Assembly: GCA_963729625.1 (NCBI GenBank)
Contig: CAVSOU010000011.1
Coordinates: 128,001 to 192,000 of the forward strand
Direction of reading: 5' to 3'
DNA: 64,000 bases
Origin: an uncultured bacterium
GTDB taxonomy: Bacteria > Chloroflexota > UBA5177 > JANWHV01
The notes below the pieces were generated by a model. It did no database searches. It had not been told where the DNA came from and saw only the letters and a program-made list of their open reading frames with translations. Shown piece by piece: positions 8,218-20,725 of this stretch (its first letter is position 1; the number at the start of each line of letters is the position of its first letter). The position numbers were made by a program, and so were the translations under genes.

Positions 8218-9498
8218 GGAATCTCTCCCGAATCGGGCGGCGTTACTGCGCACGCTCTCGGGTTGCTGGACGCTGGCTGGTTCAAGAGCGCCGCGTTCGC
8301 GCCTGACTCTAGGAGTACTGTAAGGCACCGGCCTCAACCGTGCAACAGAGTCGCCCGTGTCTACGGTGACTCGGCGACCGGTGCGAGCTGCTCAGCGCCT
8401 CTTAGCCGCCTGTCACAAAGCGGGGCTCCAATAATTGACCGTGCAGCTGACCCACGTGGGCAACCTGACAGGCCTGCGCCACGCTGCCCGAAAACGCCTG
8501 CCTGTCTCGAACAAATACCGCCGTTGGGACTGCATGGATATGCGGGAAATAGGTGCGCACCGTGGCGTCCGCGTTGCGCTACGCCAGGAACAAGCGTGCG
8601 TCTCCGCATGTCCGGGGCCCGGCTCAGAAGCCCCGCGATGCAACCTGTTTCTGCCCGAAACACACTACATCCATAAGGGAGTAAGCGCTCGGCTCTGGGC
8701 AGCGTCATCGGCGCCGATTTGGCAGCCGCCATCCACAAGCAGGTTGGTATGCTGGGCCGTGAGGACCCCGCATCAAGCACAGGATCCACCGACGTGCTAG
8801 GGTAGAGCTGGGCTGGCCCGGCTACGGGTATGGACCATCAACCCGGGGTGGGGTAGAGCCATCGTTCCCGCGGCAGGCAGAGTGTAAGAAGGGAAGACGG
8901 CGATGTCTGATCATGACCCGTGACGAGCGGGAAGCGTTCTGGCAGCGCTGCATGACGGCGCGACCAGCACGAGAAGCCAGACCACGGGGGTCGTAGTGCG
9001 GTGGGAACAGAGCGATAGGCGGCAGCAGCGCCTACGCGTTACGACGGTAGGCCAGCGCTGCGGCTGGTCAGCCTGCGCGCATTGCGTTTCCCTACGCGTA
9101 CTGTCGGTGCAAGGCGTGGTCCTGACCATAGGTCGTGGATGCCACATTCACCGTTGCCCTCTTACCCTACGCCATGAAGGTGCTTATCAAACGCCGGACT
9201 GTAGGCAGCACGCGGGATCAAGGCGCGCTCGTCCGGAAGACGGGGACAGACACGCGAAGGCTGTTGAGGAAACAGATCGCTATCTGTCGCGGCAAACGAG
9301 TACGTGGATGCGGCACATGGCGTCACCGTGGCGCGCTGCGCCGTGAAGTCGGGATGATCGAGCGGGGAGGGGATGATGGCAGAGAACGGCCGGTGACGGT
9401 CAGGTCTTGGCGGGGTTCGTGGCAGCCATGGGCGCTTTCTATGTCCTCACAACCACCGCAAATGTGGCACGGGAATACGCACTGACCAACCATCGGAA

Positions 9499-9730
9499 GT
9501 GAAGCTAGCGACTGATCTGCGTTTATCCATGCTCGCTCACCTTCAGCGGCTCGGCATGGATACCACGGGGCGGGTACGGAGCATCGATCTGCAGGCACGG
9601 TTCTCCACGGACGTGACGACAATCAAGCTTGCCCGCACGAGGTCTGCTTCCCACGGTCATTCGCTATGGCCTCCAGGTGTTCGCGGATCGTCGTGCTCCT
9701 GTTCTTCCTGGCGTGGCAACTGAAAGAGCA
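9499..9730 (+). pseudogene. Fragment of ABC exporter transmembrane domain
   Basis: LATDLRLSMLAHLQRL...DLQARFSTDV, then frameshifted ...LAWQL; no rest of gene. Confidence 0.5.
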
Positions 9731-10306
9731 GAACGCTACTGGGCGCCTTGGGCAGACGACCCATTGCGGCGAGGAGATCGGCGCGGCAGCGACACTGGAC
9801 ATGGCATTCTGCGAGGTGGGGATGCGCTGATCGCGGCGCTCTCGTCGTGGTGCCACACTATGCGAAGCTGACGGCGGTCGCCGTGTGGATCTTTACTTTG
9901 GCATTGTCAACCCCTTGCAGCCTGCTCGCCTTGTGCCCGCTCCATGCGCGAGCCGACGAGCGCCCGCCAGCTACGGCAGCGTCTTCCGCGCAGGCCATGG
10001 CGCGGCCGCGCAAATATCGTGAAGCCGTTGATGCCGGCAGAACATCTGGTCAGCGGGAGCCGAGCACCTCGTCCAGGCAAGTCGAGAAGCAGGTATAGAT
10101 AGCCAGATTCAGGAGGCGATGTTCGCGTGCTTCAGGAAGGCTGTGAACGTCGGACAGGCTTGCCCGATTTCGCGTTGTAGGATGCTTCAGCGGGAGCGAA
10201 TCGAGGACCATCGCATGATTACGCGAGTCATCGCGATGGTGGCTTTTCACTGAGAAACGGAGTTTGCGCTTGCTCGCGCGAAGCGGCGCAGCAAAAGAGG
10301 TGCAGC

Positions 10307-11475
10307 ATGAAGGTGGTGATCGTGGCTGGCACCAGGCGCGTGGCTCATATTCCATGCGCGCTTTGATCGTGGCGAGCCCTGACGGGACGAGGTGCAGTTT
10401 ATCGGCCGCACCAGGCGTCCTCGGACGACTGGCGCTTATCTGGGTTCACAAGGCCTTCCGGTGTGGCCGTTGATGTGCGGCACCACGACCGTCAGGTGGA
10501 CCTTGCAGCGCGTGGACGCTGTGCTGGCCAATACGGCGGGACCCGACTTTGAGATGCAGCTTCCCGCCGTCAAGGCAGCGATCGCGGCCGGCGTCGATTA
10601 CGCCGACATCGCCGCGGACGGCCGTGCGACCGATGAGGTGCTTGCCCTCGACGGCGAGATGCGTGTCAAGCGTAGAACGGCGCTGATTGGAGTGGGAGCA
10701 GCCCACGGGTGACGGACCGCACCGATACAGGCTCTGCGGCCACTCGACGTGGTCAGGGAGATCCAATTCGGTACCTGTGGGGAAGCTTGGCTGGTGGCGT
10801 GATGCGGGCCCACGTCGGCTATGTCGCTACTCCGGCAGCATAACTTCTGGCAGATGCGTGATGGCGTTTGTGCGGGGTCCGGTGCGGATCTATCGCGACG
10901 GGCAGCCCCAGACGGTCGACCCATTCACCCATGGAGTGACGGTTACCTGGCCGACCGGTGAGTCCTGTCGCCATCCGGTGGACAGTCGCCGAGACCCGAC
11001 GCTGCCGTTGCATCTTCCCGGAGCGCTGTCGTTCACCAGCCTGGTGTCGTTGTGGCCCCGCGGCTCAATGAGTTGTGGAGGGAGCAGAGCAGTCACATGC
11101 TGGTTGGGATCATGGGCCCGGCAGAAGCGGCACAGGCACTGTACGAGGCTGTCGCAGCGCGGCCGGGGCACTGGCTGGCCAAGCAGGCCAGGAGCCGGAG
11201 CGCTCGTGGGGCGGATTGCTCGCGGCAAGTCGGCGGACGGCCCGCCCGCTATGCCTGATGGCCACGGCGATGGTTCTATTCGACGACAGAAAGTCTCCTC
11301 GCGGTGGCTACTCTGGCGATGGTGCGTGGTGAAGTGCGAGCCAGAGGGGTGGTGCCGCCGGAGGTCGCCTTCGAACCGTCAGATGCCCTGTTTGCTACGT
11401 TGGCGGGCTTCGCAGGGACAGACGCGTCGCAAGAACCCCTGTTTGACGAGTCGATTGTGTATGAGGACAGCGTGA
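10307..11475 (+). pseudogene. Saccharopine dehydrogenase-like oxidoreductase, multiply frameshifted
   Basis: MKVVIVAG start; ANTAGPDF...AAIAAGVDYADI...ALIGVGAAHG; C-terminal GVVPPEVAFEP in another frame. Confidence 0.7.
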
Positions 11476-12017
11476 GCGGGTGAGCGGGCGGAAAAGCGGC
11501 GTGCTGACCTGCCAGGGCGTGAGTCTCATTGGCGAGGAGGTCAGAATGACTACGCGAAGTGCGCGGTTCGATGTGCATGCGCCACAGGTGGTGCCCTGGG
11601 CACCCATGCCGACAACGGCGGACGGAGACGCGAGACGGAACGCGGCGGCGACACACGCGGGGCCAGCCAAGCGACGCGCGGAAGCGGACACCGCGGCCCG
11701 CGCGAGACCACGCGGGGCGCTGGGCACGGACACAACGTGGCTCTGCGGCACCGGCAGCTGGGAAGCAGGCGGCAACAGTGGACTGCATCTCGGTGGGAAG
11801 TCGGTAGCGCTCGTGGGGGCAGAGGAATGGACTCGGGCAAGCGGTCCTGATGGAAAGAGAAGACTATTAACATTGCGAACTGGGAGCCGCCTTCTATCTT
11901 GCTGTGGCGGCGTGTGCGGGCTACACTTCACGCGTCGACTACCAGCGAATGAGTCTTGGCGGTAGGCGACCGAAGAGTAGCCCCGCGTGCCGCCGGCGAA
12001 TCGCTGGAGGGTAGCAG

Positions 12018-12506
12018 TTGAACGGGTGCATTGTGGCAGTTGGTCGCATCCGAGGCGTGACCCTCCTGTGCTTCGCGGCAGCATCGGTCGCCATCGGTCT
12101 GGCAGGCTGTGGCAGCAGCTCGACCAGCGGACCACGGACAACGGTCGCTCCCAGCGCGACTGCCGGTACCGTGAACCTCGCAGGCTGTGTTCCGGCGTCG
12201 ACGGATGGGAATGGCGGCCCCTACCCAGCCGCCACCTCAAGCGATTGCACGCGGCAGAAGACCGTGGAGATCGACGTCGTGAACGATCCAAAGACGATTG
12301 GCGGATTCTCGCCCAGTAACGTCCTGGTGTCTCGCGGGACCACGGTGACGTTCGTCTGGAAGTCTTCGGGCCACAATCTCAGCCCGTTCCATACCGATAT
12401 TGAAGACACAGGCTACGTGTTCCGCAAGACTTTCGATCGCGCCGGAGAGTACGACTACAATTGCCAGGTCCACCCGGGCCAGAACGGCGTGATATTCGTC
12501 CGGTAG
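12018..12506 (+). CDS. Cupredoxin (plastocyanin/azurin-like) lipoprotein
   Basis: Lipobox LAGC; FSPSNVLVSRGTTVTF, GHN, FDRAGEYDYNCQVHPGQNG type-1 Cu motif with axial Gln. Confidence 0.85.
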   Translation: MNGCIVAVGRIRGVTLLCFAAASVAIGLAGCGSSSTSGPRTTVAPSATAGTVNLAGCVPASTDGNGGPYPAATSSDCTRQKTVEIDVVNDPKTIGGFSPSNVLVSRGTTVTFVWKSSGHNLSPFHTDIEDTGYVFRKTFDRAGEYDYNCQVHPGQNGVIFVR

Positions 12507-12707
12507 CGGCAAGCGATGCAGTATTGTATGCTAACGACAGGGGCAGCTCGATCGGTCCCCGGATTCGACGACGGTGCGTGAACTATGCTCGTTCATTAGA
12601 AGGCCGCGAGGAGAGACAGTGTCCGCGGTGTTGCCATCGGTGTGCGCGGACAAGCCACGGCGTGTTTTGACACCTGTGCCTGCCAGTGCGGGAGGTTATC
12701 CAATACT

Positions 12708-14138
12708 ATGACTCAGACATGCGCCCGCTGCGGCCTCTTCCATCCGCAGAATGTGCCGTGCGTCTCGCAGGCATTGGCACTGGTCGAACAACCCGATGAG
12801 CTGGTCGTCGATTCTCTCCTGGCCGGTCGCTACCGTATGCTGCGGACGCTGCATCACGGCGGCATGAGCGTCGTGTATCTGGCCGAAGATATTCTGCTTG
12901 GGAACCGCCACGTGGCTATCAAGGAGCTGCGGGTGCCGGCCTCTTCCGGGCCTGAGGAGCGGCGTGAAGCCGAGGCATGGTTTGCCCGCGAGGCATACAT
13001 TCTCAGCGCCTTGAATCATCCTCTCGTCCCGGAGTTCTACAGCTCGTTCCCGGAAGGCGGCACAAGCTATATCGTCCAGGAGTACGCCGACGGCGAGAAC
13101 TTGAATGACGTGGTGCGCGCGCGCGGACCGCTGCCCGAAGCCACCGTGCTGGAGTGGGCAATATCGCTCTGCGGACTCCTCAGCCACCTGCACGGGCTGG
13201 ACGAGCCGGTGCTGTTCCGTGATCTGAAGCCCGCGAACATCGTGCTTCGGAACGCTGCGTCGACGAATCCAGACCGGGCGTGCCCGCTCAAGGTCGTGGA
13301 CTTCGGCATCGCCAGGCACTATGAGCCGAAGACGGTTGGCACGGTCATAGGCACTCCGGGTTACGCACCCCCAGAGCAATACCAGGGCCTCGCCACACCG
13401 CAGAGCGACATCTACGCGCTGGGTGCGACGCTGCACAGGTTGCTCACCGGCTACGATCCCGAGCACGGCACCACATTCTGCTACCCGAGCATTCGCTCGC
13501 TGAATCCGTTGGTCTCAAGTGAGCTTGCCGATATCGTCGAGAGAGCTATCCGCCTGGACCCGGCCCAGCGCTATGCCACGGCCGGTGAGTTTGGCGATGC
13601 CCTGCTTGACCTTGCCTGGGACCGTGGCCAGATCGGCGTTTCCGACGTGGCATCGCCGGGCGGTCACTGGTACCACGGACCGTCGACCAGGTCGCGACAG
13701 GCGTTCCGTTGGACGGCCCTCGTAGTATGCCTGATGATGGTTGCGCCCGGCGTGTTCTCAGTGCTTGCCGGCATGAGCGTGAGCTCCCCGAGCGCGACGA
13801 TCGGCTTGGGAGACTACGCGTGTCCTCCAGCCTACTCTGATGGGGCCGGGGGTCCTTATCCTGCCCAGTCCCGATCGTCGTGCCTCGGTCAATCCCGGGT
13901 CTGGATTCAGGTCGTGCCGGACGCCAACCAAGGCGTCGGCTTCGCGCCGAGTAACGTCAGCGTCAGCGTGGGAACCACGGTAGAGTTTTGGAGCAGTAGT
14001 ATCGGCTGCAAGGTCGCATGGTCGCCGAATACGGTCGGCGTGCGGACTCTGTCCGGAATCCAGTTCACGCGCACGGGTGACTATATGTACTCCTGCCAGG
14101 AAATGCCAAACGTGTTTGGGGTTGTGCATGTCGAGTAG
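12708..14138 (+). CDS. Membrane Hanks-type Ser/Thr kinase with N-terminal Cys/His ribbon and C-terminal cupredoxin-like domain
   Basis: CARCGLFH..C; GGMSVVY, VAIKE, FRDLKPAN, DFG, GTPGYAPPEQ; TM helix; C-terminal domain aligns with the upstream cupredoxin. Confidence 0.9.
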   Translation: MTQTCARCGLFHPQNVPCVSQALALVEQPDELVVDSLLAGRYRMLRTLHHGGMSVVYLAEDILLGNRHVAIKELRVPASSGPEERREAEAWFAREAYILSALNHPLVPEFYSSFPEGGTSYIVQEYADGENLNDVVRARGPLPEATVLEWAISLCGLLSHLHGLDEPVLFRDLKPANIVLRNAASTNPDRACPLKVVDFGIARHYEPKTVGTVIGTPGYAPPEQYQGLATPQSDIYALGATLHRLLTGYDPEHGTTFCYPSIRSLNPLVSSELADIVERAIRLDPAQRYATAGEFGDALLDLAWDRGQIGVSDVASPGGHWYHGPSTRSRQAFRWTALVVCLMMVAPGVFSVLAGMSVSSPSATIGLGDYACPPAYSDGAGGPYPAQSRSSCLGQSRVWIQVVPDANQGVGFAPSNVSVSVGTTVEFWSSSIGCKVAWSPNTVGVRTLSGIQFTRTGDYMYSCQEMPNVFGVVHVE

Positions 14139-14198: not shown

Positions 14199-15476
14199 GT
14201 GACTGAACCAAGGCGAGACGGCGACACCTCGGCGCCCGCACCGGCCGTGGACACGCTCCTCTCCAAGAGCGTGATAGTCGTGCCCACGTACTGGAGTCGG
14301 TCGCACGGATTTCGTCGCCCTGGAGACAGTACGGAGGATCATCCGACTCCCGCCAACGAGTCGGGCACTATGGCCCGCCTGCTTGCCAGTCTGCAGCGGC
14401 TGGCGGAGAAACCCAGTCTGGTTCTGATACTCATCTCTAGCTCCGCGCCGGACGTGGCAACCAGTGCGTCGTGGCAGGCAGACACTATTCGAGACAGATA
14501 CCCCGATCTCCCGATCGCGCTTTGGCTGCCGACGCATGTGCAGATTCTGCATGGCCGGCTCCGTTCGCTGGGTCACGACGCGTGGATCTCCTGGTTTGAT
14601 TCTCGCGGCTACCCGCTCATCCGGAATATGCAGCTTCTGGTGCCTTTCGTGCTTGGCATGGAGCTGGTCGTGGCGCTCGATGACGACGAGATCGTCGAGG
14701 ACCCCCATTTCTTGCGGCGTTCCGCCGAGGCAATCGCGTGGGGTGACGCCCGCGGCGAACGCGTGTTCGGTGCCGGCGGGCACTACCTCGATGATGCCGG
14801 CCGGCGTTGGCACGAGGTCGGGGAGTCGGAGAAGATGCAAACCAACCCGTTCGAGAAGAAGCCCCACCTCATGAACGGGATCCTCGAACGTATTGCCGCG
14901 ATGCCCGGAGAGATCGTGCCGAGCGCGTTCGCGCTCGGCGGAAACATGAGCTTCAGCCGTGAGCTCATGTGCCGGGTGGGGTTCGACCCTTCGATCGCGC
15001 GGGGAGAAGATATCGACTACGTGCTCAACGCAGCGCTCGCTGGCATTCCCTATCACTTTGACAAGGAGCGACCAATCCGGCACCTTCCGCCCCAAGGACG
15101 GTCCTACAAGGACTTCGATTATGCGAAGCTTCAGCAGGACGTGAGACGCTTCCTTTACGAGCGCGAGAAGCTACGCGCCGCGGCGGAGGCCGGTGGCTTT
15201 GCAGCAGTGCGGCCCGAGGATCTTGATCCATACCCGGGCGCCTTCTTGCATGACGACCTGGAGGTCGACGCGGTCGATTCGCTGACGCTGCACAGACCGA
15301 AGCTCTTCGACGTGAGCATCCAACAGCCCGACGTGTTCGTTCAGAACGCGCTGCACTTCGCGCGCGCCGCCGCCGAACGCTACATCACGTTTGCCCGAGC
15401 ATGGCCTCAGGCGATGGATCGGCTTGCCGACGATCGCGTGCTGCGGCACGTCATCCGGGGTATTCTTCCCGGGTAG
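14199..15476 (+). CDS. Hypothetical GT-A fold glycosyltransferase-like protein
   Basis: VVPTY, RN, LDDDE (DxD-like), GGN, GFDP...RGEDID motifs. Confidence 0.65.
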   Translation: MTEPRRDGDTSAPAPAVDTLLSKSVIVVPTYWSRSHGFRRPGDSTEDHPTPANESGTMARLLASLQRLAEKPSLVLILISSSAPDVATSASWQADTIRDRYPDLPIALWLPTHVQILHGRLRSLGHDAWISWFDSRGYPLIRNMQLLVPFVLGMELVVALDDDEIVEDPHFLRRSAEAIAWGDARGERVFGAGGHYLDDAGRRWHEVGESEKMQTNPFEKKPHLMNGILERIAAMPGEIVPSAFALGGNMSFSRELMCRVGFDPSIARGEDIDYVLNAALAGIPYHFDKERPIRHLPPQGRSYKDFDYAKLQQDVRRFLYEREKLRAAAEAGGFAAVRPEDLDPYPGAFLHDDLEVDAVDSLTLHRPKLFDVSIQQPDVFVQNALHFARAAAERYITFARAWPQAMDRLADDRVLRHVIRGILPG

Positions 15477-15509: not shown

Positions 15510-17078
15510 CTACAAGCCTTGAGGCGCGGACGCGCGTCTCCACCTCAGGTCTGGCTTCCGTGCCGCGAGAGCTTCGTCGATGCGCGATACCGGCGCATGG
15601 TGCGGCGCGCCGCGGACCTCGTCGCTCCCCGCTTCGACTTCCCGGGCAACCGCCAGCAGCGCCTCGGCAAAGCCCTCGAGAGTGGCTCGATCTTCCGTCT
15701 CAGTCGGCTCGATCATCAGGCACTCGTCGACGATGTGCGGGAAATAGATGGTCGGCGGATGGTAGCCGAAGTCGATCAGGCGCTTCACCATGTCTATCGT
15801 CTTCACGCCTTGTTGCTTCTGCCGCGTGCCCGACACCACGAATTCATGCATGCAGCTGCCCGGGAAGGGCGCCTCGAACGCGCTGATCAGCAAGGAACGC
15901 AGGTAGTTGGCATTGAGCACGGCGTCGCGGCTTGCCAGCGTCAGGCCGTCGGGACCCATGGAGCGAACGTACACGTATGCTCGAATGAGCAGGCCAACGT
16001 TGCCGAAGAAGCTGCGCACACGGCCGATGCTGAGCGGCCGGTCGCTCGTGAGCGTGTAGAGCTCCGCGCCATCGGCACCGGCTCCCCGCTCGATCTGCGG
16101 CACGGGCAGGAAGGGCGCCAGCGCGGCCTTCACCCCGACGGGACCCGTGCCTGGTCCGCCGCCGCCATGTGGCGTGGTCATCGTCTTGTGCAGGTTGAAG
16201 TGCACTACGTCGAAGCCCATGTCGCCGGGACGCGCGGTGCCCATGATCGCATTGAGGTTCGCTCCGTCATAGTAGAGACGTCCACCGGCATCGTGTACGA
16301 TGCCGGCTATCTCCACGATGTCCTTCTCGAAAAGACCGCACGTATTCGGATTGGTGAGCATCAACGCCGCGGTTCGCGGTCCGGTTAGCCGGCGCAGATC
16401 GTCGACGTCGACCGTGCCCCGAGCATTGGATTTCACTTGCACGACGCTGTATCCTGCGGCAGCCGCACTCGCCGGGTTGGTTCCGTGGGCCGTGTCCGGC
16501 ACCAGGACCTCGCTCCGGCGATCGCCGCGACTCTCATGGAAGGCGCGGATGATCATCAGACCCGTGAGCTCGCCATGCGCCCCCGCTGCCGGCTGCAGCG
16601 TGAAGGCGTCCATGCCGCCTATCTCACAGAGATACTCCTGCAAGCGGAAGAGAAGCGCGAGCACGCCCTGGACTGTGGAGTCGGGCTGGTGTGGATGGAG
16701 ACCGGACCAGCGTGGATCGGCGACTAGGTCCTCGTGCAGTTTTGGATTGTACTTCATGGTGCACGAGCCAAGTGGGTAGAATCCGCCGTCGATGCTGTAA
16801 TTCAGCTGCGAGAGCCTGGTGAAGTGCCTCACGACCTGCAGTTCACTCATTTCGGGCAGCTCAGCAGTTGTAGATCGCTGGAGTTGCGATGGGATGAGTG
16901 CCGCGATCGGTTGCTCAGGCACGTCACAGGCCGGAAGGGAGAAAGCCGATCGACCGGGAGACGATAGCTCAAACACGGTCGGCTCGAGGACCTTGCGGTC
17001 GGCGGTTGTCGCGGCGGAGCTTGGCCGTGCTGGCGCCGCGTCCTGCATATCTTTCAAGGGCTGGCCTATCGCCATCAT
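15510..17078 (-). CDS. gcvPB: Glycine dehydrogenase (decarboxylating) subunit 2
   Basis: [40 protein letters not shown]; ATGA overlap with gcvPA. Confidence 0.96.
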
Positions 17079-18418
17079 GCGCGCACCTCTCCCAGTGCCT
17101 GAGCCAGGGCATCGATATCTTCTCTGCCGTTCAGCTCCGTGCAACACACGAGCAGTCCTTGCGGAATGCCCGCCTGTCCATCCAGCGGGATTCCGGCGAG
17201 GATGCCACGCGTGACCAGGGCGTCGCGAATCTCCGCTCCCGGCAGAGGCGTGCGGACCGCGAACTCATGGAAGAAGGGCCGGTGAAAAGCCAGTTCATAG
17301 CCGGCGACCCTGCCGATCTGGTCGGCCGCGTAGTGCGCCTTCTGCACGCACAGATTGGCCACGTGGCGCAGACCCTGCTTGCCCATGTAGCTGAGGTACA
17401 TGGTGGCCGTCGTGGCGCAGAGCGCATGGTTGGAGCAAATATTGCTGGTAGCCTTCTCCCGTCGAATGTCTTGTTCGCGCGTGCGCAGCGTCATGACGTA
17501 GGCACGGCGCCCCCGCGAGTCGACGCTGGCGCCCACGATGCGTCCCGGCAAGCGACGCACGAGCGATTCCTTGCAGGCGATGAACCCTGCGTACGGTCCG
17601 CCATACGCGAGCGGCATGCCAAACGGCTGGGCATCACCCACCGCGATGTCCGCGCCCACTTCACCGGGCGTGCTCAACAGTGCCAGCGACAGCGGGTTTA
17701 CACACGCGACATACAGTGCGCCGGCCCCGTGCGCGGCTTCGGCCAGAACCGCCTGGTCTTCGACAATCCCGAAATAGTTCGGCGACTGAGCGATCACGAC
17801 CGCGCTGCGATCGTCGAGGGCCGCGGCCACCCGCGCGGCGTCCACGCTGCCATTCAGGGCCGGCACTTCAGTCAATGTAAGGCCCTGGCTCCAGCAGTAC
17901 GTCCGGAGCACCTGCAGATAGTCGGGATTGAGTGTGCCGGGCACAATCACCCCACGACGCCCCGTGGCGTTCACGGCCATCATCGCCGCTTCCGCACATG
18001 CCGTGGCGGCGTCATAGAGCGAGGCGTTGGAGACGTCGAGCCCGGTTAGCTCGCAGATCATGCTCTGCCACTCGTAGGTCACTTGCAGCGTGCCCTGGCT
18101 AACCTCCGGCTGGTACGGCGTGTACGCTGTGACAAACTCGCCACGGGACGCCAATGCCGAGACAACGGCCGGAATGTGGTGATGGTAAGCGCCGCCCCCA
18201 AGGAAGGAGCGTGGCCCGGCACGCAGGCTATTGCGGTCGGCCAGTCTCTCCATCTCCTGGATGATCTCGGGTTCCGAGACCGCAACTGGCAGGTCGAGCG
18301 GACCAGAGCGCAGTCCTGATGGGATGTCGGCGAGCAGGTCCTCCATGCTGGAGACGCCAAGCGAATCGAGCATCGCGCCGCGATCGGCATCGGTGTGAGG
18401 GAGATATGGTGTGGGCAT
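17075..18418 (-). CDS. gcvPA: Glycine dehydrogenase (decarboxylating) subunit 1
   Basis: [40 protein letters not shown]. Confidence 0.96.
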
Positions 18419-18460
18419 TCTGCGGTGATCCTTTGAACTCGTCAATCTCGATGTGTCCCC

Positions 18461-18488
18461 GCGCTGCCCTGATGCCGCAGCTTCAGGC
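18461..18488. repeat. REP-like palindromic element, copy 1
   Basis: GCGCTGCCCTGATGCCGCAGCTTCAGGC, identical at 60571-60598, 1 mismatch at 18594-18621. Confidence 0.75.
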
Positions 18489-18593
18489 CCACGGGCGCCA
18501 TATCTCGTAGCCGCCGCAGCCGCGGGGTACGCATACAGTGGGTCGCCTTCCATTCTGCTGCAGCTGGAGGTCAATCAAGTGGAAGCCCCCCGT

Positions 18594-18621
18594 GCGCTCC
18601 CCTGATGCCGCAGCTTCAGGC
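18594..18621. repeat. REP-like palindromic element, copy 2
   Basis: GCGCTCCCCTGATGCCGCAGCTTCAGGC. Confidence 0.75.
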
Positions 18622-18662
18622 TTGGAACACATCGCGACGACTCCCCCCTTCACGTATCAGCC

Positions 18663-19034
18663 TCAGTGCGCGGCGGTCTCCTGGTACGTGGCCCGATCCA
18701 TCAACAGTTCCCGATCGGCGACATTCCCTGAGATCTTTAGTAGCCAGCCGTCGCCGAACGGGCTGTTGTTCACGAGCTCGGGCTTGTCCACCAGCGCGGT
18801 GTTCACCTCCACCACGGTGAAATCGATGGGTGCGTACAGATCTGAAGCAGTCTTCACCGACTCGATGGTCCCGAAAGTCTCGCCGGCCTTGAACGCCTTG
18901 CCGACCGGCGGAAGCTCGACGTACACGACGTCGCCCAGCTGTTCCTGCGCGAAGTCGCTGATGCCAATGGTCATGGGGTCGCCATCGCTTGTCCACTCGT
19001 GGCTGCTCGCATAGCGGAGAAGATCCGGATTCAC
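18663..19034 (-). CDS. gcvH: Glycine cleavage system H protein
   Basis: [31 protein letters not shown] lipoyl-Lys, NNSPFGDGW; GTG start with AGGAGG. Confidence 0.96.
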
Positions 19035-19252
19035 GTCTGTCCCTCCTATGTGCTTCATCGGTGTACGGTCAACTGGCGAAACGATCGTCGACTCGGGCGC
19101 GCCCGGGAATCGCGATCTGTGCTGATGAGTCAAATGTCCTGCCTGTGGCCTTTCCAGTGGCCGGGCCTCGGCCCGCGCGTCTGATACTCCCGCCTTCAGG
19201 CCGCCTCTGCTGTTGTGCCCTGGGAAACGTTACGAACGTGACAAGTGCCCCT

Positions 19253-20476
19253 CTAGGTTTGCTTTTGGCGTCGATAGAACGGTGTCTTGACTACCGTGGC
19301 TCGGTGCGGCTGGTCGCGCACCCGCACGGCAACCGTGGTGCCGATTGGCGACTCCGCGACCGGCAGATAGGCAAGGGCGATTCCCTTGCCGAGCGTGGGC
19401 GAGAAGCCGCCGCTCGTCACCTCGCCAAGCTGATTGCCTGCGCTATCGACGACAGCGTAGTGGGCGCGCGGCACAGCCCGATCATCCATGGCGAGCCCGG
19501 CAAGCACGCGTGTGAGACCTTCTCGCTGCTGCGCTGCCAGCGCATCGCGGCCTCTGAACTTCGGCTTCTCAAGCTTGACCCAGCGGCCAAGTCCGGCTTC
19601 CAGCGGCGTCGTATCGTCGGTGATGTCATTGCCGTAAAGGGGTAGCCTCGCCTCGAGACGAAGCGTGTCGCGCGCGCCGAGGCCAACCGGTCGCAGCCCA
19701 TAATCGACGCCGGCCCCGCGCAGAGCGTTCCACAGATTCACCGCCTGCGCGGCGTCGACCAGCAGCTCAAAACCGTCCTCGCCCGTGTAACCGGTCCGCG
19801 CAATGGTGACCGCGAGTCCAGCCACCACAGACGTTGCCAGCCCGAAGAAAGGAAGCGCTTCGAGCGGCTCATCCGTCAGCGCCTGGAGGATGATTTCCGC
19901 ATTCGGACCCTGGATGGCGATCAACGCGGTCTCGAAACTGCGATCTTCGATCGTCGTGACGCCTTGCAGCCGTTCCTCTCCTTGAACCTGATTCAGCCAG
20001 GCCCAATCCTTCTCGGTGTTGGCGGCGTTCACGATCAGGAGGTAATGGGCGTCCTCCGCTCCCGGCAGGTGGTAGGCGATAATGTCGTCCACGATCGTGC
20101 CGTCGTCCCGACACATCGGCGAATAGACCGCGCGCGACGCCGGCACCATGCTGATGTCGTTGGTTATCAGCGTGTTGACGAGACATAAGGCGCCCGGGCC
20201 GCCCACGTAGAACTCGCCCATGTGCGAGAGGTCAAAAAGACCGGCGGTGGTTCGCGTGGCGTTGTGTTCCTCGACGATGCTGCCGTAATCGATCGGCATG
20301 TGCCAGCCGCCGAAGGGCGCCATGCGCGCCCCTAGCGCCACATGCTGGGCATGCAGAGGCGTTTCACGCAACGTTTCCGTTGCGGGAGCCACGTCCCGCC
20401 ACGGGCTCGGCCTCGCCGCGCGATCCGTGCCTGGCACGTCGTGCCCGGGCCGCGCCGGAGTAGCGTCCTCGCTCAT
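19253..20476 (-). CDS. gcvT: Glycine cleavage system aminomethyltransferase T
   Basis: PFGGWHMP, FDLSHMGE, RTGYTGEDGFE, GLGARDTLRLEA. Confidence 0.96.
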   Translation of the reverse strand: MSEDATPARPGHDVPGTDRAARPSPWRDVAPATETLRETPLHAQHVALGARMAPFGGWHMPIDYGSIVEEHNATRTTAGLFDLSHMGEFYVGGPGALCLVNTLITNDISMVPASRAVYSPMCRDDGTIVDDIIAYHLPGAEDAHYLLIVNAANTEKDWAWLNQVQGEERLQGVTTIEDRSFETALIAIQGPNAEIILQALTDEPLEALPFFGLATSVVAGLAVTIARTGYTGEDGFELLVDAAQAVNLWNALRGAGVDYGLRPVGLGARDTLRLEARLPLYGNDITDDTTPLEAGLGRWVKLEKPKFRGRDALAAQQREGLTRVLAGLAMDDRAVPRAHYAVVDSAGNQLGEVTSGGFSPTLGKGIALAYLPVAESPIGTTVAVRVRDQPHRATVVKTPFYRRQKQT

Positions 20477-20512
20477 CTCGTCACCCTTCTCAAGGCTCCA
20501 GTTCCGGCACCA

Positions 20513-20725
20513 CAAAACAGAAAGAGCGGAGACTATGGGGTATCATCGCCCGCATAGCTCCGCTCTGTTCTCGTCCAGCCCGCCTCGCAAGAGACGGCCG
20601 GGTCCCGTTCAGAGCACCGTCCAGCCGGAATCCTGTTGCCTGAGAGATTCACCCGCCTTGCGAGCTTTCCCCTTCGGCGCCGCGCCTAGCTTGACGCGAT
20701 CTCTTTTCCTGCCTTCTCCCGGTAG
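20513..20725 (-). ncRNA. Glycine riboswitch (singlet with ghost aptamer) plus intrinsic terminator
   Basis: Minus strand AGAGA...CGCCGAAGG...AATCTCTCAGG...GGACG..CTCTG; terminator stem AGAGCGGAG/CTCCGCTCT followed by TTCTGTTTT, upstream of gcvT. Confidence 0.88.

What the first reader, a model, noticed from the sequence alone, without database searches (positions are those of the whole stretch)
12018..14138. Blue-copper lipoprotein plus Ser/Thr kinase carrying a re-liganded copy of the same cupredoxin: candidate copper/redox signalling pair
Seen: the kinase's post-TM domain is a clear paralog of the adjacent lipoprotein. They share an unusual Cys loop (CVPASTDGNGGPYPAATSSDC vs CPPAYSDGAGGPYPAQSRSSC), F(S/A)PSNVxVSxGTTVxF and G(E/D)YxYxCQ...GV. 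The lipoprotein has His/Cys/His/Gln ligands (GHN...CQVHPGQ). In the kinase the aligned positions are Cys/Cys/Met/Val (GCK...CQEMPNV). Kinase catalytic motifs are intact. Inference: a Cys2-Met soft-metal (Cu(I)) site or disulfide switch could sense copper or redox state, possibly via the partner lipoprotein. I know of no characterised Hanks kinase with a cupredoxin sensor.
Basis: partly seen in the sequence, partly recalled or inferred. Interest (0 to 1): 0.76.

Follow-up and report, generated by a model that had tools for sequence, protein, structure and literature searches.

The report
Receptor kinase with copper-stripped cupredoxin sensor
In one uncultured bacterial genus a membrane signalling kinase carries, as its predicted outside sensor, a copy of the copper-protein lipoprotein encoded next to it in which the copper-binding residues have been replaced by a conserved cysteine pair that likely forms a disulfide, so it is an unusual sensor design but probably not the copper sensor first proposed.

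Summary
Observation confirmed, with one important correction. Window 12018-12506 encodes a lipoprotein cupredoxin with His/Cys/His/Gln ligands; 12708-14138 encodes a Hanks kinase with intact catalytic residues, one predicted membrane helix and a C-terminal paralog of that cupredoxin (43% identical over 106 aa). The pair is adjacent in 4 of 4 kinase loci whose upstream DNA I could read, and strong matches were confined to one Chloroflexota genus among the genomes searched. In 12 of 12 kinase tails both former-site cysteines are kept, but the methionine occurs in only 1 of 12, so the proposed Cys2-Met site is an accident of this genome. The copper half of the domain drifts fast (30-48% identity between orthologs; lipoprotein 62-84%), while the shared Cys-closed DGxGGPYP loop stays fixed. 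Best reading: a copper-less, likely disulfide-stapled sensor that recognises a partner or ligand through the shared loop (0.42); a CupA-like two-thiol Cu(I)/redox switch remains open (0.28). Binding and Cys-Cys distance could not be tested. My paper searches found no such fusion. This scan reported the same system twice before, from another genome.

The parts
12018..12506 (+). Lipoprotein cupredoxin, 162 aa (TTG start after GGAGG; a GTG at 12042 is an alternative start)
   Evidence: Pfam Copper-bind E 1.3e-6, 29.2 bits against cut-off 21.2; AF2 model matches cupredoxins, best Foldseek E 4.8e-6
12099..12110 (+). Lipobox LAGC, Cys31 predicted to be lipidated
   Evidence: sequence; (L/A/T/V)xGC in the full-length homologs of alignment A1; lipidation inferred
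12186..12248 (+). Family-specific loop C57-C77 holding DGxGGPYP, predicted to be closed by a disulfide
   Evidence: C57 27 of 27, C77 28 of 28 non-kinase family members that cover it; disulfide inferred
12372..12482 (+). Type-1 copper ligand set H119, C149, H152, axial Q155 (short C-x2-H-x2-Q loop)
   Evidence: H119 27 of 29, C149 27 of 27, H152 25 of 27, Q155 26 of 27; copper binding inferred
12708..14138 (+). Hanks-type receptor Ser/Thr kinase, 476 aa
   Evidence: (Pkinase 118.5 bits against cut-off 31.7)
12720..12761 (+). N-terminal C-x2-C-x3-H-x5-C motif, likely a small zinc finger, shared with sister kinases that carry other ectodomains
   Evidence: 8 of 8 kinase homologs with a complete N-terminus, sister kinases; no Pfam match; zinc binding inferred
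12834..13574 (+). Kinase catalytic domain (residues 43-289)
   Evidence: K72, E95, RDLKPxN, DFG, APE in 9 of 9 rows that hold the domain; dN/dS 0.056 against G001
13704..13775 (+). Single predicted membrane helix, N-in/C-out, very conserved (C341, M343, M344, P347)
   Evidence: Kyte-Doolittle 2.3, 3 K/R before and 0 after; 100% identical in G001, 75% in G002; topology predicted
13821..14135 (+). Cupredoxin-fold ectodomain, paralog of the lipoprotein
   Evidence: pLDDT 82; best Z 8.0, rmsd 3.0, 84 aligned
13821..13883 (+). Kinase copy of the Cys-closed loop, C372-C392
   Evidence: C372 12 of 12, D378 12 of 12, C392 11 of 12; G381 to P385 11 of 11
14007..14009 (+). C434, in place of the first His ligand
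   Evidence: 12 of 12
14094..14096 (+). C463, the retained Cys ligand
   Evidence: 12 of 12
14103..14105 (+). M466, in place of the second His ligand; not conserved
   Evidence: Met in 1 of 12

Best explanation
The kinase carries a cupredoxin-fold copy of the neighbouring lipoprotein in which both copper-binding histidines and the axial ligand are gone and two invariant cysteines likely form a structural disulfide across the empty site, so that it would sense not copper but a partner or ligand bound by the Cys-closed loop that both proteins keep. Shown: paralogy, one origin of the kinase tails, loss of the His/His/Gln ligands, two invariant Cys pairs, fast drift of the former copper half, conserved adjacency, intact catalytic residues. 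Inferred: the domain faces outwards; both Cys pairs are oxidised there; the lipoprotein is a low-potential type-1 copper carrier of the Gln-axial kind; the lipoprotein itself, or a molecule that both proteins bind through the loop, clusters the kinase in the membrane (the near-invariant membrane helix may help) and so triggers autophosphorylation, as proposed for other bacterial receptor kinases. The kinase is an add-on: the lipoprotein also occurs without it.
For: No third metal ligand is kept: among positions with Cys, His, Met, Asp or Glu in at least 6 of 12 tails, none near the site is invariant except C434 and C463 (E465 8 of 12). One tail has no His or Met at all in the domain (P0077). 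The chain just before C434 takes insertions or deletions of 1-2 residues, unlike the fixed WKxxxHN stretch of the lipoproteins. Between orthologs of G000, G001 and G002 the C-terminal (former copper) half is 47.5/33.3/30.5% identical, the N-terminal loop half 77.8/62.2/62.2%, the same C-half of the lipoprotein 83.6/67.2/62.3% and the kinase domain 89.4/75.0/72.7%; dN 0.48, 0.14, 0.12 and 0.06 for G000 against G001. The residues invariant in both branches lie in the loop and first strands (C372, D378, G382, Y384, P385, D405, F412, P414, N416). Two lipoproteins (P0017, P0023, one close lineage) have lost both His yet keep the loop. Predicted topology is N-in/C-out; the disulfide-forming enzyme VKOR is found in 3 of 5 genomes of the genus, including both other kinase-bearing ones. 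No copper genes lie near any locus. PknH is a precedent for a receptor-kinase sensor held by two disulfides, and sensor-driven dimerisation is the accepted activation model (PMC3601408, passages).
Against: No coordinates were returned, so the S-S distance was not measured. A linear two-thiol Cu(I) site needs no third ligand and would give the same conservation pattern (CupA S1 site; PMC5646241, passages). VKOR and DsbB were not found in G000 itself, 87% complete, and my even-cysteine test was uninformative (5 even, 5 odd among 14 lipoprotein-like ORFs). The loop may be conserved only because the fold needs it; one fragment (P0085) lacks the second loop Cys. Adjacency is also what a tandem duplication leaves behind. 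G003 and G004 keep the lipoprotein with no ortholog of the kinase.
Confidence: 0.42

Rival explanations
1. The C434/C463 pair is the sensing element: a CupA-like two-thiol Cu(I) site or a reversible thiol-disulfide switch whose state, perhaps set by copper or electrons from the lipoprotein, switches the kinase.
For: Both Cys are invariant in 12 of 12 while their surroundings drift; a new Cys arose exactly at a former ligand position, and T/K435 and P467 next to them are nearly fixed. CupA is a cupredoxin that binds Cu(I) through two Cys and reduces Cu(II) with them (PMC5646241 and PMC7558416, passages); 4f2e is among the Foldseek matches of the tail model (rank 18, E 5.3e-3). A mycobacterial kinase with an outside DsbA-like domain is a precedent for a redox fold as sensor (PMC1262709, passages).
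Against: Predicted outward-facing in a genus that has VKOR, where free thiol pairs tend to oxidise, whereas CupA acts inside the cell; no Met-rich second site; indels beside C434; no copper genes nearby, and the two-component system upstream in G002 and G004 scores below the heavy-metal cut-offs and better with other families. The CupA match is no better than pseudoazurins and amicyanins.
Confidence: 0.28
2. Domain capture without a functional tie: this kinase subfamily swaps ectodomains freely, took a copy of its neighbour once, stabilised it with a disulfide and now uses it for an unrelated signal or as a spacer; the genes stay together only through shared history.
For: Sister kinases (57-61% identical over the kinase part) keep the same N-terminal Cys/His motif and a similar Pro-containing membrane helix but carry unrelated ectodomains. 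The lipoprotein stands alone in G003 and G004 and has a secreted, unlinked paralog in G002. The tail evolves faster than any other part of the pair. The two genes are 70-201 bases apart, with no promoter or terminator evidence either way.
Against: Adjacency survives in 4 of 4 readable loci although the flanking genes on both sides differ among them; the loop residues are invariant in both branches over a long separating branch.
Confidence: 0.22
3. The first reader's Cys2-Met soft-metal site (C434, C463, M466) binds Cu(I).
For: The three residues sit at former ligand positions in this genome.
Against: Met in 1 of 12 tails; the closest ortholog (G001, 81% identical overall) has Phe; the others have Tyr, Phe, Leu, Gln, Asn or Ile.
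Confidence: 0.03

Closest known systems
Single-pass bacterial receptor Ser/Thr kinases (PknB/PrkC/StkP, PknD, PknH, the DsbA-domain kinase of Mycobacterium tuberculosis)
   Same: Cytoplasmic Hanks domain, one membrane helix, C-terminal sensor; PknH's sensor also has two disulfides and an unknown ligand (PMC3601408, passages); one has a redox-protein fold outside (PMC1262709, passages).
   Different: The sensor here is a cupredoxin and a paralog of the next gene; no PASTA, propeller, PknH_C or DsbA match; extra N-terminal Cys/His motif; His in the glycine-rich loop.
CupA and the N-terminal domain of CopA, Streptococcus pneumoniae (PDB 4f2e)
   Same: Membrane-anchored cupredoxin fold with two Cys and no His at the metal site; a cupredoxin-cupredoxin protein pair (PMC7558416, PMC5646241, passages).
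   Different: CupA works inside the cell in a cop operon and has a second, Met-rich site; here the domain is predicted outside, has no conserved Met, is fused to a kinase and has no copper genes nearby. That C434 matches CupA C74 in space is recalled, not tested.
Auracyanin D (Chloroflexus aurantiacus) and stellacyanin, Gln-axial type-1 cupredoxins; amicyanin for the short ligand loop
   Same: The lipoprotein has His/Cys/His/Gln; auracyanin D has an axial Gln and a low potential, about +90 mV (PMC10804444, passages); same phylum.
   Different: No auracyanin among the 28 PDB sequence matches or the Foldseek rows shown; nearest solved folds are Nitrosopumilus cupredoxins, plastocyanin, amicyanin, pseudoazurin. 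The DGxGGPYP loop was seen only in this family among the 178 proteins held. Below all NCBIfam cut-offs.

Membership tests
Hanks-type Ser/Thr kinase | Pkinase domain above the curated cut-off | tested here: met
   118.5 bits against 31.7
Hanks-type Ser/Thr kinase | Catalytic Lys, helix-C Glu, RDLKPxN, DFG, APE | tested here: met
   9 of 9 rows that hold the kinase domain
Hanks-type Ser/Thr kinase | Canonical GxGxxG loop | tested here: not met
   HxGGMS in 8 of 8 rows with the stretch, also in the sister kinase; effect on activity unknown
Hanks-type Ser/Thr kinase | Phosphotransfer activity | not testable with these tools
   needs an assay; dN/dS 0.056 shows purifying selection only
Single-pass receptor kinase | One membrane helix, kinase inside, sensor outside | tested here: met
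   hydropathy and positive-inside count in 7 of 7 full or near-full proteins; a prediction, a re-entrant helix is not excluded
Type-1 cupredoxin (lipoprotein) | Cupredoxin fold | tested here: met
   (best E 4.8e-6, TM-score 0.70 on the target); Pfam
Type-1 cupredoxin (lipoprotein) | His, Cys, His and axial Met/Gln ligands | tested here: met
   H119, C149, H152, Q155
Type-1 cupredoxin (lipoprotein) | Bound copper with type-1 spectrum | not testable with these tools
   needs UV-vis and EPR
Type-1 cupredoxin (kinase ectodomain) | Cupredoxin fold | tested here: met
   Pfam alone misses it (0 of 6 tails reach a cut-off)
Type-1 cupredoxin (kinase ectodomain) | His, Cys, His and axial ligand | tested here: not met
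   0 of 12 keep either His; axial position Val 9, Ile 2, Asp 1
CupA-type Cu(I) cupredoxin | Two Cys forming a two-thiol site | tested here: inconclusive
   two invariant Cys present; geometry and equivalence to C74/C111 not measured
CupA-type Cu(I) cupredoxin | Met-rich second site (C-x-M-x-M) | tested here: not met
   0 of 12
CupA-type Cu(I) cupredoxin | Faces the cytoplasm and lies in a cop operon | tested here: not met
   predicted outside; no copper genes in the loci read
Auracyanin D | Axial Gln | tested here: met
   Q155 26 of 27; PMC10804444 passage
Auracyanin D | Sequence or structure kinship with auracyanins | tested here: inconclusive
   not among listed matches; lists are capped
PknH-type sensor kinase | PknH sensor fold | tested here: not met
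   ectodomain is a cupredoxin beta-sandwich; no PknH_C match

The most novel reading that the evidence does not exclude
A two-part copper/redox receptor: the Gln-axial cupredoxin lipoprotein docks on its own paralog in the kinase through the shared Cys-closed loop and passes Cu(I) or an electron to the C434/C463 pair, whose thiol state switches Ser/Thr phosphorylation. This would be the first Hanks kinase wired directly to an extracytoplasmic copper electron carrier.
Probability: 0.17. Interest if true: 0.82.

Novelty: new variant of a known kind. Interest (0 to 1): 0.5.

Why it matters
Ligands are unknown for most bacterial receptor Ser/Thr kinases. Here the sensor's origin is visible (a copy of the gene next door), which names a candidate partner and two mutable sites, and both domains are about 105 residues and easy to express. 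It is also a clean natural case of a type-1 copper site turned into a cysteine pair. If the pair proves to be a switch, it links copper or envelope redox state to Ser/Thr signalling; if it is a plain disulfide, it is a good example of metal-site loss on sensor recruitment but of narrow reach (one uncultured genus).

Tried and rejected
Complex prediction of ectodomain with lipoprotein: tool not available, nothing folded; no verdict. ESM Atlas look-alikes: not answered. RNA runs: no RNA holder listed. Model coordinates are not returned, so no Cys-Cys distance. Even-cysteine bias test: uninformative, 14 lipoprotein-like ORFs only. AU test of whether the kinase tails nest inside the lipoprotein family: the free tree nests them but sister placement is not rejected, p-AU 0.185 (9 partial or near-duplicate rows left out of 48); only the single origin of the tails and the ancestral copper site are claimed. 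The second copy on contig C6 was rejected as a real duplication: 99.2% identical over 7.7 kb with scattered indels and a one-base loss in a C run inside the kinase, most likely a strain or assembly duplicate. The glycosyltransferase-like gene downstream was rejected as a fixed third member: it follows in G000, G001, G003, G004 but not in G002 or L035, and occurs in 15 of 21 genomes of the class. The upstream two-component system of G002/G004 was rejected as evidence of copper context. A membrane Cys/Met/Met metal site (C341, M343, M344) was considered; sister kinases with other ectodomains have a similar Met/Pro helix, so I give it little weight. (profile of A3 against PDB sequences) only returned kinase domains. 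Weak phylum-wide hits (7 loci read of 9 matches outside the genus) are ordinary His/Cys/His/Met cupredoxins, none a kinase; that search scored only 8 candidates per genome and missed the known G003/G004 lipoproteins, so it is insensitive. The primary CupA and PknH structure papers were not held.

Full report
What is there. Window 12018-12506 (+) encodes a 162-aa protein with a lipobox (LAGC, Cys31), a Ser/Thr/Pro linker and a cupredoxin domain (Pfam Copper-bind above cut-off). 201 bases downstream, 12708-14138 encodes a 476-aa protein: an N-terminal C-x2-C-x3-H-x5-C motif, a Pkinase domain (118.5 bits), one hydrophobic stretch (residues about 333-356; 3 K/R before, none after) and a 105-aa tail. 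The tail is 43% identical to the lipoprotein domain over 106 aa, E 3e-22. AlphaFold2 models of both (tail pLDDT 82; lipoprotein domain mostly above 85) match solved cupredoxins: nitrite reductase domains, pseudoazurin, plastocyanin, amicyanin (second look best Z 8.0, rmsd 3.0 over 84 residues, a middling score that I trust because of the sequence link to the lipoprotein). Pfam alone does not recognise the tail (0 of 6 tails reach a cut-off), which is why annotation misses this architecture. The organism is a member of Chloroflexota, judged from a source name of a close lipoprotein homolog and the titles of public records that hold the closest relatives.

Distribution. With the tail as query, 5 of 41 genomes match, all of one genus, including the window's own. 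A profile search of 301 genomes of the phylum gave strong matches in 3 genomes of that genus and weak ones (E 1e-6 to 1e-8) in 8 others; the 7 weak loci I read are ordinary His/Cys/His/Met cupredoxins and none is a kinase; this search is insensitive, as it missed two known lipoproteins. Protein searches gave 22 lipoprotein-size homologs among 224 candidates, 7 kinase-size homologs among 220 and 6 more loop-bearing proteins among the best 150 of a profile search; a metagenome scan added 1 true locus of 4 returned. In all I compared 12 kinase tails (three are fragments: P0028, and P0077 and P0085, which begin in the membrane helix and are assigned by that motif) and 29 kinase-free family members; some database proteins are the same as genes of the handled genomes, so the sets are not fully independent. 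The lipoprotein lies directly upstream in 4 of 4 kinase loci for which I had DNA (G000, G001, G002, L035); the context of the other 8 tails, one of them the G001 gene itself, was not fetched separately. In G003 and G004 (about 90% complete) the lipoprotein is followed at once by the glycosyltransferase-like gene, and the best kinase matches are 57-59% sister kinases with other ectodomains. So the kinase was seen only with the lipoprotein, but not the reverse. The copy on contig C6 is 99.2% identical over 7.7 kb with a one-base loss in a C run and is treated as an assembly or strain duplicate.

The former copper site. The kinase-free members keep H119 (27 of 29), C149 (27 of 27), H152 (25 of 27) and Q155 (26 of 27; one has Met): a type-1 ligand set with axial Gln, as in stellacyanin (PMC4059628, passages) and the low-potential auracyanin D (PMC10804444, passages). 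The tails form one branch (100/99; 100/100 with 7 outside cupredoxins), and since all outside cupredoxins read and nearly all family members have the His/Cys/His set, the copper site is ancestral and was lost once on the kinase side. Whether the tails nest inside the lipoproteins is not settled (p-AU 0.185).

What selection keeps. Between orthologs of G000, G001 and G002, the kinase domain is 73-89% identical, the membrane helix 75-100%, the loop half of the tail 62-78% and the former copper half only 30-48%, whereas the matching lipoprotein half is 62-84%. For G000 against G001, dN is 0.06, 0, 0.14 and 0.48, and 0.11-0.12 in the lipoprotein; dS is near saturation, so ratios are rough. The stretch before C434 tolerates small indels. 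What both branches hold fixed is the N-terminal loop C-x2-A-x2-D-G-x-G-G-P-Y-P ... C and the following V-x6-D ... F-x-P-S-N. Two near-identical lipoproteins have lost both His but keep the loop. This pattern points to the loop, not the metal site, as the shared business end, with the caveat that the loop may be kept for folding.

Context. No copper transporter, chaperone, oxidase or repressor lies in the loci read. The OmpR-type pair upstream in G002 and G004 (27 kb away in G000) scores below the heavy-metal family cut-offs and higher with other families. The genus is aerobic by gene content (cytochrome oxidase subunit I in 5 of 5) and has several other cupredoxins per genome. VKOR is found in 3 of 5 genomes, not in G000 or G004, and DsbB in 0 of 5; an even-cysteine test was uninformative. 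One promoter-like and one terminator-like match, both on the minus strand, are at chance level.

Mechanism. I commit to a copper-less sensor: after the lipoprotein gene was copied onto the end of a kinase from a subfamily that swaps ectodomains, His-to-Cys change likely stapled the emptied site with a disulfide, and the retained loop likely binds the lipoprotein or a ligand common to both, bringing kinase domains together; dimerisation-driven activation is the standard model (PMC3601408, passages). Confidence 0.42. The main rival (0.28) is that the Cys pair is itself the sensor, as the two-thiol Cu(I) site of CupA (C74/C111; PMC5646241 and PMC7558416, passages); sequence cannot separate a disulfide from such a site, and only the predicted outside location, the indels and the lack of copper context weigh against it. 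A third reading (0.22) is capture without any remaining tie.

Known or new. Four searches combining cupredoxin or copper sensing with bacterial Ser/Thr kinases returned 0, 0, 7 and 0 papers; the 7 were seen as a listing only and concern plants, fungi and one copper review. A 2005 survey of prokaryotic kinase architectures has no occurrence of copper, cupredoxin, plastocyanin or azurin in its main text but lists a DsbA-domain kinase (PMC1262709, passages; supplements not read). The library lacks most subscription papers, so this is limited evidence. Two earlier unchecked notes of this scan describe the same system in another genome; they agree but are not independent support. Verdict: a real, conserved, narrowly distributed new variant of the receptor Ser/Thr kinase, interest 0.5.

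Noticed in passing
window 15510-20515 (-) and 20618-20718 (-): Glycine cleavage genes gcvT, gcvH, gcvPA, gcvPB with a single glycine riboswitch aptamer upstream (Pfam for T and the two P subunits, H by sequence; Rfam RF00504, 57.4 bits). Ordinary.
   Followed up: partly
window 14199-15476 (+): 425-aa glycosyltransferase-like protein with a DDDE motif, no Pfam/NCBIfam match above cut-off and no PDB sequence match, yet present in 15 of 21 genomes of the class: an unannotated widespread family.
   Followed up: partly
P0017, P0023 (alignment A1): Lipoproteins of the same family that have lost both His ligands (Ala/Cys/Asn/Gln) but keep the loop: a second, independent copper loss.
   Followed up: partly
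L016:9210-9677 (-), P0054, P0083, P0094, P0095: A secreted, non-lipidated branch of the family with the same loop; P0095 has Met instead of Gln as axial ligand.
   Followed up: partly
L035:1479-2630 (+): The lipoprotein is in one open frame with an upstream gene of unknown family that in other genomes is a separate gene before the two-component pair (57% to G000 C11:112149-112838); a real fusion by deletion or a chance open frame.
   Followed up: no
window 12720-12761 and G000 C11:551911 (-), C7:547066 (+): A subfamily of kinases in this genus starts with a C-x2-C-x3-H-x5-C motif without Pfam match and carries varied ectodomains; G000 has about 20 Hanks kinases.
   Followed up: partly
G000 contig C6 (L017): 13.6 kb contig duplicating window-region C11:134206-147534 at 90-99% with many indels; likely a second strain or assembly duplicate, in line with the 5% contamination figure.
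   Followed up: yes
G000 C11:547000-550400 (next to the sister kinase): Several long near-identical repeats (about 165 codons, 98-100%) downstream of the sister kinase; not examined.
   Followed up: no
window 8400-12000: About 3.5 kb upstream of the lipoprotein holds no ORF with a Pfam match among the three tested, is not shared with G001-G004 and differs by 6-10% from the C6 copy; may be decayed or recently inserted DNA.
   Followed up: partly
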